11,091 nt of DNA from assembly GCA_030631995.1 (NCBI GenBank), contig DAOVKB010000036.1, forward strand, positions 1 through 11,091, in the 5' to 3' direction. The DNA comes from an archaeon (GTDB lineage Archaea; Asgardarchaeota; Heimdallarchaeia; Heimdallarchaeales; Heimdallarchaeaceae). This document shows, in pieces, positions 8,672 through 8,851 of the stretch. The position numbers were made by a program, and so were the translations under genes. Position 1 is the first letter of the stretch; each line of letters begins with the position of its first letter. Below the pieces are notes generated by a model. That model did not search any database. It saw only the letters and a list, made by a program, of their open reading frames with translations, and was not told the origin of the DNA.

Positions 8672-8851
8672 CCTAGTAAAGTTTTCAGGTTCGGAATGAG
8701 TCTGAGTGTTACCCCTTCACTATGGCCGCGACGCATCGCAGCGAACGGCCGTTCCCAAGCCCTCGCGGAACTTAGTACAGAGCCACACGTTGAAGGACTT
8801 AACTTTCCCGACCATCTGGAACGCACCCAGATGTTGTCTGACCTTACTAGG
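8672..8851 (-). rRNA. 5S rRNA gene in circularly permuted order (3' half - UGCG loop - 5' half) with flanking 10-bp helix and extra hairpin
   Basis: Minus-strand RNA read from 8851 down to 8672, in order. (1) CCUAGUAAGG. (2) UCAGACAA. (3) Hairpin CAUCUGG-GUGCGUU-CCAGAUG. (4) GUCGGG. (5) 3' half, 8806-8736: AAAGUUAAGUCCUUCAACGUGUGGCUCUGUACUAAGUUCCGCGAGGGCUUGGGAACGGCCGUUCGCUGCGA. (6) UGCG loop, 8735-8732. (7) 5' half, 8731-8685: UCGCGGCCAUAGUGAAGGGGUAACACUCAGACUCAUUCCGAACCUGA. (8) AAA. (9) CUUUACUAGG. The two halves match archaeal 5S hallmarks: GCGGCCAUAG, CAUUCCGAAC, AAGUUAAG, GUACU...GCGAG...GGGAAC, GUUCGC. Helices fold by eye. Helix I is UCGCGGC/GCUGCGA. Helix II is GUGAAGG/CCUUCA(A)C. Helix III is UCAG/CUGA. 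Helix IV is CUAAG..GCGA..CUUGG. Together the halves total about 120 nt. The region is visibly GC-rich in an AT-rich window. Confidence 0.8.
8813..8833 (-). other. extra hairpin inside the permuted 5S transcription unit (not part of canonical 5S)
   Basis: Perfect 7-bp stem CAUCUGG/CCAGAUG with loop GUGCGUU. It can be extended by GAC (8838-8836) / GUC (8812-8810) across an AA bulge. It sits between the 5' flanking helix and the AAGUUAAG loop-B segment. Confidence 0.6.

What the first reader, a model, noticed from the sequence alone, without database searches (positions are those of the whole stretch)
8672..8851. Circularly permuted 5S rRNA gene hidden under a spurious 76-aa ORF
Read on the minus strand, the canonical 3' half of 5S (loop B AAGUUAAG through helix II 3' strand, helices V/IV, GUUCGCUGCGA; 8806-8736) lies upstream of the canonical 5' half (UCGCGGCCAUAGUGAAGGGG..CAUUCCGAACCUGA; 8731-8685). 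The native 3' and 5' ends are joined by only four nucleotides (UGCG, 8735-8732). Helix I therefore becomes a capped 7-bp hairpin, GCUGCGA-UGCG-UCGCGGC. The new ends fall between helix III and loop B and are clamped by a 10-bp helix, CCUAGUAAGG (8851-8842) / CUUUACUAGG (8681-8672). One pair in that helix is G-U on the minus strand but an A-C mismatch on the plus strand, which supports minus-strand transcription. The two halves sum to about 120 nt and keep all helix pairings, so this does not look like a decayed fragment or a tandem-copy junction. Permuted tRNA genes (Cyanidioschyzon merolae, Thermofilum pendens), a permuted SRP RNA (Thermoproteus) and permuted organellar 5S are known. I am not aware of a permuted chromosomal archaeal 5S. 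Standard rRNA callers would miss it or split it.
Basis: partly seen in the sequence, partly recalled or inferred. Interest (0 to 1): 0.92.

Follow-up and report, generated by a model that had tools for sequence, protein, structure and literature searches.

The report
Circularly permuted 5S rRNA gene
In this Heimdall-group archaeon and about 30 other Asgard genomes the 5S ribosomal RNA gene is written second half first, and it is flanked by a splicing-type cut-and-join signal that would rebuild a normal 5S as a closed circle, which would explain why no 5S gene could be found in these close archaeal relatives of eukaryotes.

Summary
On the minus strand, 8812..8733 matches Rfam 5S positions 43-120. 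The adjacent 8733..8676 matches positions 1-58, so the two halves are in swapped order. The native ends are joined by a UGCG tetraloop.

The same arrangement occurs in 33 other Asgard loci: Heimdallarchaeota, including two closed Heimdallarchaeum genomes, plus Baldr- and Jord/Freyarchaeia. Covariation is strong in every helix, including helix II, which pairs the two swapped halves.

A covariance model built from the joined-and-reopened sequences finds ordinary collinear 5S genes full length (91-111 bits). The genomic loci give only split hits. The authors of the closed Heimdallarchaeum genomes reported that no 5S gene could be predicted.

New here: I read the flanking helix as a processing stem rather than a clamp. 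Together with a 4-bp helix and two 3-nt bulges it forms a bulge-helix-bulge-like motif. Cutting and ligating there gives a 121-nt circle (8804..8684) whose helix III/loop B junction has exactly canonical spacing.

Cleavage and circularisation are inferred; I had no RNA data. I found no prior report. Verdict: a real and highly interesting new variant of permuted, splicing-machinery-processed archaeal RNA genes.

The parts
8874..8882 (-). Putative archaeal TATA-like box (AUUCAAAAA), 22-30 nt upstream of the outer helix. It would place the transcription start at or just before the helix.
   Evidence: Read from the sequence. An A/T-rich motif of the form (G)yAAAs(A)TTAAAAA sits at the same distance in most Heimdall-type loci. 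Inferred, not tested. The sigma-70 scan is not applicable and found nothing.
8841..8852 (-). Outer (leader) strand of processing stem P0, GCCUAGUAAGGU.
   Evidence: Pairs with 8682-8671 over 12 bp. 11 of 12 pairs show changes on both sides across 28 relatives, and 89% of cells are paired.
8813..8833 (-). Leader hairpin P1 (CAUCUGG-GUGCGUU-CCAGAUG). Present only in Heimdall-type genes; role unknown.
   Evidence: 7-bp stem, 95.9% of cells paired, 3 pairs with compensatory changes, loop nearly invariant. Absent in Baldr/Jord units. It aligns weakly to helix III/loop C of the 5S itself.
8807..8810 (-). Leader strand of the central 4-bp helix H (CGGG) of the bulge-helix-bulge-like motif.
   Evidence: Pairs with CCUG 8689-8686. 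112/112 cells are paired in 28 Heimdall-type units. It changes to CGUG/CACG in Baldr and Jord, with compensatory changes at two pairs.
8804..8806 (-). 3-nt bulge AAA on the leader side. Predicted cleavage between 8805 and 8804.
   Evidence: AAA (AUA in one sequence) immediately precedes GUYAAG/GUCAAA in all 33 units that include this region. The cleavage position follows the tRNA-intron rule (established knowledge). Not tested.
8684..8804 (-). Predicted excised and circularised 5S rRNA, 121 nt. Contains the 3' half (8804-8736), the UGCG cap (8735-8732) and the 5' half (8731-8684).
   Evidence: Rfam half-hits. Covariation in helices I, II, IV, V and III. The joined-and-reopened sequence builds model R1, which hits canonical 5S genes full length. 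A circular fold gives the 5S three-way junction.
8732..8735 (-). UNCG-type tetraloop (UGCG) capping helix I where the canonical 5' and 3' ends would be.
   Evidence: Caps are UGCG, UUCG, UACG or UAUG in Heimdall-type units, UUCG in Baldr and CUCG in Jord. The helix I stem is 7-9 bp. The closing pair covaries: A-U to C-G or U-A.
8686..8689 (-). 5S-side strand of central helix H (CCUG). It overlaps the 3' strand of helix III (CUGA 8688-8685) by three bases.
8683..8685 (-). 3-nt bulge AAA on the trailer side. Predicted cleavage between 8684 and 8683.
   Evidence: AAA in Heimdall-type units (GAA in L047), GAA in Baldr and Jord. It lies directly between H and P0.
8671..8682 (-). Trailer strand of processing stem P0, ACUUUACUAGGU.
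   Evidence: One-sided changes in the orthologue L004 keep pairing only on the minus strand.
8666..8669 (-). Short U-run (UUUU) right after P0; probable transcription stop. It is 5-6 U in most relatives.
   Evidence: Sequence read. Inferred.
8696..8926 (+). Spurious 76-aa ORF lying antisense over the RNA gene.
   Evidence: Not called as a gene in any assembly of this locus. No related protein in the database.

Best explanation
This is the organism's 5S rRNA gene, encoded in circularly permuted order on the minus strand.

Proposed pathway:
1. A short independent transcript runs from about 8852 to about 8666. (Inferred.)
2. It contains, in order: a leader strand; the 3' part of 5S (loop B 3' side, helix II 3' strand, helices V/IV, helix I 3' strand); a UGCG tetraloop; the 5' part of 5S (helix I 5' strand, loop A, helix II 5' strand, helix III/loop C); and a trailer strand. 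(Shown.)
3. Leader and trailer pair in a 12-bp stem, P0. Next to it, the leader's CGGG pairs with CCUG at the 3' end of the 5S body. Each strand then has a 3-nt AAA bulge just 3' of that 4-bp helix. This is the geometry of the archaeal bulge-helix-bulge splicing motif. (Pairing shown by covariation; the motif assignment is inferred.)
4. The tRNA splicing endonuclease EndA cuts in both bulges, and the ligase RtcB joins the ends of the excised piece. (Inferred.)
5. The product is a 121-nt covalently closed circle (8804..8684). The join CCUGAA|AGUUAAG recreates the canonical helix III/loop B junction, and helix I stays capped by the tetraloop.
6. This circle folds as a normal 5S three-way junction and is the 5S of the 50S subunit.

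The permuted gene is shared by many Heimdallarchaeia, by Baldrarchaeia and by Jord/Freyarchaeia, always with the same break point. It probably arose from a partial tandem duplication. (Inferred.)
For: Identity as 5S:
- Rfam half-hits in swapped order.
- Conserved loop A CAUAG, loop C CAUUCCGAAC, and loop E GUACU/GGGAA.
- RNAalifold on the joined-and-reopened sequences gives the 5S three-way junction.
- Model R1, built only from those sequences, hits ordinary collinear 5S genes end to end in unrelated archaeal contigs at 91-111 bits (E 1e-25 to 1e-31), and bacterial 5S genes at 43-71 bits.
- Rfam confirms those targets as RF00001.
- Every Asgard locus gives only two adjacent split hits.

Function rather than relic:
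- 34 units across 33 Asgard stretches plus the window.
- In the 28 aligned Heimdall-type units, 94.8-97.1% of cells are paired. 27 of 49 pairs change on both sides, 0/500 shuffles reach the observed values, and slid controls collapse to 25-52%.
- Helix II, which can form only if both swapped halves are in one RNA, has 5 of 7 covarying pairs.
- The closed Heimdallarchaeum genomes carry two permuted copies each. Their authors could not predict any 5S gene.
- No canonical-order Heimdall-type 5S turned up in the metagenome scan.

Processing motif:
- P0 covaries at 11 of 12 pairs.
- H is paired in 112/112 cells. It switches C(A/G)GG/CCUG to CGUG/CACG in Baldr and Jord, so complementarity is kept but sequence similarity is not.
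- In Baldr the layout is a textbook outer helix - H - bulge: GGUGCGGCAUCC-CGUG-AAA / CACG-GAA-GGAUGCCGCACC.
- Cutting after the second bulge base gives circles of 121, 123 and 125 nt. Their junction aligns without any gap to canonical 5S.
- H sequesters three bases of helix III. That makes sense only for a transient precursor.
- The MFE fold of the L024 precursor shows helix - AAA bulge - helix by itself.

Precedents:
- The permuted SRP RNA of Thermoproteus is cut at such a motif by EndA and functions as a circle. That paper defines the motif as a 4-bp helix flanked by at least one 3-nt bulge.
- Circular 16S and 23S transcripts are seen in Asgard archaea.
- E. coli ribosomes tolerate a 5S whose native ends are joined by a tetraloop.
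Against: - There are no RNA data. Cleavage, ligation and circularity are all inferred.
- The leader-side bulge is not followed by an inner helix, so the motif is a relaxed helix-bulge-helix plus loop, not a strict hBHBh'.
- In Heimdall-type genes, 31-32 nt including hairpin P1 separate P0 from H on the leader strand. The motif would therefore sit on a three-way junction.
- Single-sequence MFE folds of the window and Baldr precursors prefer helix III over H.
- An alternative 4-bp helix (UCAG 8840-8837 with CUGA 8688-8685) next to P0 is 90.9% paired. It would leave P1 inside the product.
- An attempt to find transcript-derived junction sequences through the protein database returned nothing.
- This MAG is incomplete, so a second, canonical 5S cannot be excluded for this particular organism.
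Confidence: 0.68

Rival explanations
1. Permuted gene and permuted product. The roughly 185-nt transcript is not cut. The 12-bp helix P0 permanently clamps the new ends, and the ribosome carries a linear permuted 5S with an extra stem and the P1 hairpin protruding near helix III.
For: P0 and P1 are both under structural selection. The transcript appears to begin and end right at P0. [quoted passage not shown] Large insertions in archaeal 5S are tolerated in Halococcus (abstract of PMC7530397).
Against: The leader's C(A/G)GG / CGUG is kept complementary to the 3' strand of helix III in all 33 units that include it. In a permanent structure this would destroy the universally conserved helix III. 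The two 3-nt bulges lie exactly 4 bp apart, and the predicted join has exactly canonical spacing in three lineages. A mere clamp would not need either feature. P0 has a quite different sequence and length in sub-lineages, and P1 is absent in Baldr and Jord, as expected for disposable flanks.
Confidence: 0.12
2. The precursor is cut at the bulges, but the final RNA is not a circle. Either the ends are left unligated, giving a linear permuted 5S nicked between helix III and loop B. Or the circle is reopened in the helix I cap, giving an ordinary linear 5S, as happens with permuted tRNAs.
For: The permuted tRNA precursors of Cyanidioschyzon pass through a circle that is then re-cut. Circular pre-16S rRNA is re-linearised in other archaea. 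A nicked 5S would still be held together by helices II and III and the loop B pairs.
Against: The cap is a stable UNCG-type tetraloop in nearly all sequences, on a 7-9 bp stem with no spare nucleotides. That is a poor nuclease target and an odd choice for a spacer that will be discarded. In archaea, RNAs excised by EndA are generally circularised.
Confidence: 0.17
3. A rearranged 5S pseudogene or an assembly artefact, with a canonical 5S elsewhere supplying the ribosomes.
For: This MAG is fragmentary, so a canonical copy cannot be excluded for it directly. Rfam does not call the locus.
Against: The sequence is identical in separate assemblies. The same arrangement is found in a different species at 98% identity and in 33 Asgard stretches, including closed genomes. 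Compensatory changes occur in every helix. No collinear copy is present in any fetched Asgard DNA. No 5S could be predicted in the closed Heimdallarchaeum genomes.
Confidence: 0.02

Closest known systems
Circularly permuted SRP RNA gene of Thermoproteus tenax/uzoniensis (Plagens et al. 2015, PMC4731332)
   Same: A universal, essential structured RNA whose canonical gene could not be found. The gene is encoded with its 3' part before its 5' part. Leader and trailer fold into a bulge-helix-bulge motif. In Thermoproteus that motif is cut by the tRNA splicing endonuclease, the ends are ligated, and the circle is the functional form.
   Different: This is a different RNA (5S rRNA, a ribosome component) in a different phylum (Asgard, not Thermoproteota). 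It is spread across several classes rather than a few species. Heimdall-type genes carry an extra conserved leader hairpin. Processing here is only predicted.
Permuted tRNA genes (Cyanidioschyzon merolae; also Thermofilum pendens)
   Same: The 3' half is encoded upstream of the 5' half. The precursor's ends are joined via a BHB-type motif into a circular intermediate (refs 58/59 of PMC4267664).
   Different: There the circle is only an intermediate and is reopened at the mature tRNA ends. Here the native ends are replaced by a tight UNCG tetraloop, so reopening seems unlikely.
Archaeal circular pre-16S/23S rRNAs, circular 23S in ribosomes, and post-transcriptionally permuted 23S of Pyrococcus/Thermococcus (PMC12918454, PMC7758197, PMC10515664)
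   Same: A leader-trailer processing stem with a BHB motif, EndA cleavage, RtcB circularisation of an rRNA, and in some lineages a circle retained in the ribosome. Circular 16S/23S transcripts are seen in Asgard archaea.
   Different: Those genes are collinear, so permutation arises only at the RNA level. The field states explicitly that 5S is not processed this way. Here the gene itself is permuted, and circularisation is needed to restore continuity.
Permuted mitochondrial 5S rRNA of brown algae and other stramenopiles (Valach et al. 2014, PMC4267664; Rfam mtPerm-5S)
   Same: A natural 5S in which helix I is a closed hairpin and the termini lie elsewhere.
   Different: It is organellar. The termini lie at the three-way junction between domains alpha and gamma, not between helix III and loop B. 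The product itself is permuted and linear, with no BHB motif and no ligation.
Engineered circularly permuted 5S in E. coli (Huang et al. 2020, PMC7283268)
   Same: The native 5S ends are joined by a tetraloop, and the RNA still functions in ribosomes.
   Different: It is artificial. The new ends are placed in loop C or D and fused into 23S rRNA, so it is not a free or circular molecule.

Membership tests
5S rRNA (Rfam RF00001) | Collinear match of the genomic sequence to the covariance model at or above the gathering score (38 bits). | tested here: not met
   No hit at gathering score. A forced 18.1-bit alignment. The same holds for the permuted loci L011, L017, L024, L027 and L032. The failure is one of gene order, not of homology.
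5S rRNA (Rfam RF00001) | All model positions are present; both halves match the model. | tested here: met
   8733..8676(-) matches model 1-58 at 26.3 bits. 8812..8733(-) matches model 43-120 at 27.7 bits. Model R1, built from joined-and-reopened sequences, matches Rfam-confirmed canonical 5S genes over positions 1-117 at 91-111 bits.
5S rRNA (Rfam RF00001) | Three-way junction with helices I-V supported by covariation, plus conserved loops A, C and E. | tested here: met
   97.1% of cells paired and 14 of 33 pairs with double changes. RNAalifold consensus. Invariant CAUAG, CAUYCCGAAC and GUACU/GGGAA.
5S rRNA (Rfam RF00001) | Incorporated into the large ribosomal subunit. | not testable with these tools
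   Needs ribosome purification, RNA-seq or cryo-EM.
Permuted archaeal/algal RNA genes matured by the tRNA splicing machinery (permuted tRNA, permuted SRP RNA) | The 3' portion of the RNA is encoded upstream of the 5' portion in one transcription unit. | tested here: met
Permuted archaeal/algal RNA genes matured by the tRNA splicing machinery (permuted tRNA, permuted SRP RNA) | Leader and trailer form a central 4-bp helix flanked by at least one 3-nt bulge (the definition in PMC4731332), and the cleavage sites give the correct mature junction. | tested here: met
   H is 4 bp, 100% paired, and covaries between lineages. The bulges are AAA/AAA in Heimdall-type units and AAA/GAA in Baldr and Jord. 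The outer helix covaries. The predicted join has canonical spacing. The strict hBHBh' form is not met, because there is no inner helix after the leader-side bulge.
Permuted archaeal/algal RNA genes matured by the tRNA splicing machinery (permuted tRNA, permuted SRP RNA) | Cleavage by EndA and ligation by RtcB; circular junction detectable in RNA. | not testable with these tools
   An indirect attempt, searching for junction-spanning ORFs in proteins predicted from public assemblies, found nothing, not even the genomic ORF. This is uninformative.
Organellar permuted 5S (Rfam mtPerm-5S) | Termini at the junction of domains alpha and gamma, with a 5' or 3' hairpin replacing helix I; matches the mtPerm-5S model. 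| tested here: not met
   Here the termini lie between helix III and loop B, in domain beta. Only RF00001 was reported for the region at E up to 10. Lower-scoring members of the same clan are suppressed by the tool, so the model comparison itself is inconclusive.

The most novel reading that the evidence does not exclude
The ribosomes of Heimdallarchaeia (the archaeal lineage argued to be closest to eukaryotes), Baldrarchaeia and Jord/Freyarchaeia contain a covalently closed circular 5S rRNA. It is made from an anciently permuted gene by the tRNA-splicing endonuclease and ligase. The permutation has a single origin deep in the Asgard tree, because all lineages share the same break point, the same A-rich bulges and the same capped helix I. 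That would make 5S the first universal rRNA known to be encoded in permuted order on a cellular chromosome, and one that depends on RNA circularisation for its function.
Probability: 0.5. Interest if true: 0.92.

Novelty: new variant of a known kind. Interest (0 to 1): 0.88.

Why it matters
- **Conservation of 5S.** 5S rRNA is universal and among the most conserved RNAs. Its gene order has been considered invariant outside organelles. Reviews list permuted 5S only for mitochondria, and the field states that archaeal 5S, unlike 16S/23S, is not processed through circles.
- **A practical puzzle solved.** No 5S gene could be predicted in closed Heimdallarchaeum genomes. From general knowledge, genome-quality standards for metagenome-assembled genomes ask for a 5S gene. 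Asgard genomes of these lineages would fail that criterion for a purely technical reason.
- **New annotation.** It gives annotators a new model to add.
- **Wider role for the splicing machinery.** It extends the moonlighting role of the tRNA splicing machinery to a ribosomal RNA.
- **Testable prediction.** It predicts a circular 5S in a ribosome.
- **A lineage marker.** It provides a discrete rare genomic change (permuted versus collinear 5S) that could help order Asgard lineages relative to the eukaryotic stem. Eukaryotes have collinear 5S genes.

Tried and rejected
1. **Alternative central helix.** UCAG 8840-8837 with CUGA 8688-8685, directly next to P0, would keep hairpin P1 inside the product. 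It is less well supported: 90.9% paired, with the first pair broken in 8 of 28 units. Helix H is 100% paired and is the one homologous to the Baldr/Jord motif. This alternative is not excluded.
2. **Canonical-order Heimdall-type 5S in metagenomes.** The scan gave 14 hits. All are GC-rich, unrelated, ordinary archaeal 5S genes. They were useful only as canonical references.
3. **Transcript-derived evidence for the ligated junction.** I searched three junction-spanning reading frames against the protein database. No candidates were returned at all, so the test is uninformative.
4. **Synteny route to relatives.** Using flavodoxin homologues, only the closest relative (P0003) was syntenic. P0006 and P0018 were not.
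5. **Bacterial pattern hits.** L015, L025 and L028 are ordinary 23S-5S operons. L014, L029 and L035 have no 5S match and look like chance matches in other sequence.
6. **C/D-box or K-turn reading of the leader.** UGAUGA occurs only in L047, so this is not conserved. Dropped.
7. **Thermodynamic z-scores.** -3.5 for the minus-strand precursor against -2.0 for the plus strand, and -0.8 for the circle. These are weak evidence, so I rely on covariation.
8. **Sigma-70 promoter and intrinsic terminator scan.** Not applicable to archaea, and it found nothing.
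Full report
**1. Origin of the window**

The flavodoxin gene next to the feature is found with 100% identity on three assemblies:
- NCBI GCA_022096855.1, contig JADCTL010000430.1, labelled a Candidatus Heimdallarchaeota MAG.
- A 78.5-kb ENA scaffold.
- A Logan contig.

The segment 8600-8980 is identical in the NCBI and ENA assemblies. The window is 34.6% GC. The feature is 53% GC and is the only GC-rich island.

**2. Checking the observation**

- Flanking helix: 8851-8842 with 8681-8672. It extends to 12 bp, 8852-8841 with 8682-8671.
- Cap: UGCG at 8735-8732.
- Helix I: a 7-bp capped hairpin at 8742-8725.
- The 5S 3' half lies upstream of the 5' half on the minus strand.

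Rfam at gathering score finds only the neighbouring tRNA-Ser. With relaxed thresholds the whole region gives one forced 18-bit 5S alignment.

- 8733..8676(-) aligns to model positions 1-58 (26.3 bits, E 3.5e-4).
- 8812..8733(-) aligns to positions 43-120 (27.7 bits, E 2e-4).

**3. Is it real and functional?**

A related species (flavodoxin 85% identical; L004, plus an independent Logan assembly, L005) has the same arrangement at 98% identity. Two one-sided changes in the flanking helix keep pairing only on the minus strand.

I then scanned 185,579 species-representative genomes with a pattern that can match only if the 3' motifs precede the 5' motifs: GTAC-N18-GGGA-N{15,45}-CAYAGYG-N{16,26}-CAYYYCGAAC. 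It returned 39 stretches.
- 33 are Asgard contigs. Most are Heimdallarchaeota, including AB_125 and the two closed genomes Ca. Heimdallarchaeum aukensis and endolithica, each with two copies.
- The Asgard hits also include Baldrarchaeota (2) and Jord/Freyarchaeia (3).
- Three bacterial hits are ordinary 23S-5S operons, and three look like chance matches.

In an alignment of 28 Heimdall-type units (A2), the proposed structure is well supported.
- 94.8-97.1% of cells are paired.
- 27 of 49 pairs have changes on both sides.
- 0 of 500 shuffles reach the observed values.
- When partners are slid by one to three columns, pairing collapses to 25-52%.

Helix II can form only if the two swapped halves belong to one RNA. 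It has 5 of 7 covarying pairs. Helix IV has 4 of 6 and helix V has 3 of 6.

**4. Proof that the pieces make a normal 5S**

I joined the predicted ends in silico and reopened each sequence at the helix I cap. I aligned 19 of these (A3) and built a covariance model, R1. Its structure was chosen by RNAalifold and is the classical three-way junction.

- R1 matches ordinary collinear 5S genes over all 117 positions in unrelated archaeal metagenome contigs, at 91-111 bits (E 1e-25 to 1e-31).
- It matches bacterial 5S genes at 43-71 bits.
- Rfam confirms these targets as RF00001.
- Every Asgard locus gives only two adjacent split hits of about 50 and about 35 bits.
- No collinear copy occurs in about 480 kb of Asgard DNA fetched.

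A metagenome scan for a Heimdall-type 5S in canonical order found only unrelated GC-rich archaeal 5S genes.

[quoted passage not shown] The permuted gene therefore appears to be the only 5S in that lineage.

**5. How it most likely works**

The flanks are more than a clamp. In the tRNA-intron bulge-helix-bulge motif, each strand reads 5'-helix, 4-nt central helix, 3-nt bulge, helix-3'. Cleavage falls after the second bulge base (established knowledge).

The simplest versions here fit that layout.
- Baldr: leader GGUGCGGCAUCC-CGUG-AA|A-GUCAAG..., and 3' end ...GAA-CACG-GA|A-GGAUGCCGCACC. The outer helix is a perfect 12 bp.
- Jord/Frey: the same, with GGCGUCGUUG / CAGCGACGCC as the outer helix.
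- The window: P0 (8852-8841 with 8682-8671), H = CGGG 8810-8807 with CCUG 8689-8686, and bulges AAA 8806-8804 and AAA 8685-8683.

H is paired in all 112 cells of the Heimdall alignment. It changes to CGUG/CACG in Baldr and Jord. Complementarity is therefore conserved while sequence similarity is not.

Cutting and ligating gives circles of 121 nt (8804..8684 in the window), 123 nt and 125 nt. The junction CCUGAA|AGUUAAG aligns without a gap to canonical CCUGGAAGUUAAG.

H uses three bases of the helix III 3' strand, so helix III can form only after processing. This argues for a transient precursor structure.

The cap is always a UNCG-type tetraloop (UGCG, UUCG, UACG, UAUG or CUCG) on a 7-9 bp helix I. 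This argues against reopening there.

A circular fold of the 121-mer gives helices I-V.

A TATA-like box 22-30 nt upstream of P0 and a U-run right after it suggest a self-contained transcript. This is inferred.

Shown: the gene order, the pairings and the conservation. Inferred: EndA cleavage, RtcB ligation and a circular mature form.

**6. What remains unclear**

- *Hairpin P1.* Heimdall-type leaders carry 31-32 nt between P0 and H, including hairpin P1 (8833-8813). Its stem covaries and its loop AUGCGUU is nearly invariant. Baldr and Jord lack it.
- *Origin of the leader.* The leader aligns to helix III/loop C of the 5S itself. The match is significant in L013 and L017 (0/500 shuffles) but not in the window (107/500). 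This suggests origin by partial tandem duplication, with the upstream copy of that arm reshaped.
- *Alternative cut site.* A central helix next to P0 (UCAG/CUGA) is less well kept, at 90.9%. If it were used, P1 would stay in the product as an expansion.
- *Strictness of the motif.* It is relaxed, with no inner helix after the leader-side bulge. MFE folds of single precursors show it only in L024.
- *Other Asgard classes.* I could not determine whether Loki-, Thor-, Odin- and other Asgard classes have collinear or divergent permuted genes.

**7. Comparison with what is known**

- *Closest analogue:* the permuted SRP RNA gene of Thermoproteus. It was a missing canonical gene. Leader and trailer form a BHB motif, EndA cleaves it, and the circle is functional (PMC4731332).
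- *Permuted tRNA genes:* they use a circular intermediate.
- *Archaeal 16S/23S rRNAs:* they are circularised at BHB motifs, including in Asgard. However, 5S is explicitly described as not processed this way (PMC12918454).
- *Natural permuted 5S:* it was known only in stramenopile mitochondria, with a different break point and a linear permuted product (PMC4267664; list in PMC10085705).
- *Engineered E. coli 5S:* a 5S with its native ends joined by a tetraloop works in ribosomes (PMC7283268).

Five full-text searches found no report of a permuted or circular 5S in archaea or Asgard. The library lacks most subscription journals, so a prior report cannot be fully excluded.

**8. Verdict**

The reading is extended in two ways: the permuted gene is a conserved Asgard-wide family, and the flanking helix is reinterpreted as part of a splicing-type processing motif that would yield a circular 5S rRNA.

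- Novelty: a new variant of a known kind (permuted RNA genes repaired by the tRNA splicing machinery), applied to a universal ribosomal RNA.
- Confidence that this is the functional, permuted 5S gene: about 0.9.
- Confidence in the full cut-and-circularise mechanism: about 0.65-0.7.

Noticed in passing
window 8975-9057 (+); L017 1517-1596; L024 6779-6862: A tRNA gene (tRNA-Ser GCU in the window) sits divergently about 120 nt upstream of the permuted 5S. The same 5S/tRNA neighbourhood recurs in Heimdallarchaeota AB_125 and Heimdallarchaeum aukensis. An AT-rich TTTAAATTTAAA element lies between the two genes in the window (about 8936-8948) and looks like the tRNA's TATA box.
   Followed up: partly
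L024/L033 versus L027/L039 (CP084166, CP084167): Each closed Heimdallarchaeum genome carries two permuted 5S paralogues with different leader/trailer architectures. One type has an extra GUGG/CCAC helix directly beside the central helix. According to the genome paper, the genome has a single 16S gene.
   Followed up: partly
window 8813-8833 (-): The leader hairpin P1 has a covarying stem and a nearly invariant AUGCGUU loop. It is present only in Heimdall-type genes. It may be a reshaped remnant of a duplicated helix III/loop C. Its function is unknown.
   Followed up: partly
L026 (JBHLQZ010000003.1): This contig is labelled Candidatus Thorarchaeota, but its permuted 5S unit and flanks are almost identical to those of Heimdallarchaeota YT1_029 (L040). 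The contig may be mis-binned or mislabelled.
   Followed up: no
window 8696-8926 (+): The 76-aa ORF antisense to the RNA gene has no counterpart in the 5.8-billion-cluster protein database and is not called on any assembly of the locus. The RNA gene also ends only about 4-9 nt from the stop codon of the convergent flavodoxin gene (8147-8662).
   Followed up: yes
window 2431-4524 (-) and upstream; L001 1773-6369: Bacterial-type DNA gyrase genes gyrB and gyrA lie nearby. So do a MiaB-like radical-SAM enzyme (5031-6338), an OB-fold protein, DUF5752, YccF, and HypE/HypF hydrogenase maturation genes (from 9119). The roughly 500-nt AT-rich gap between gyrB and the radical-SAM gene (4525-5030) has no Rfam match.
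   Followed up: no
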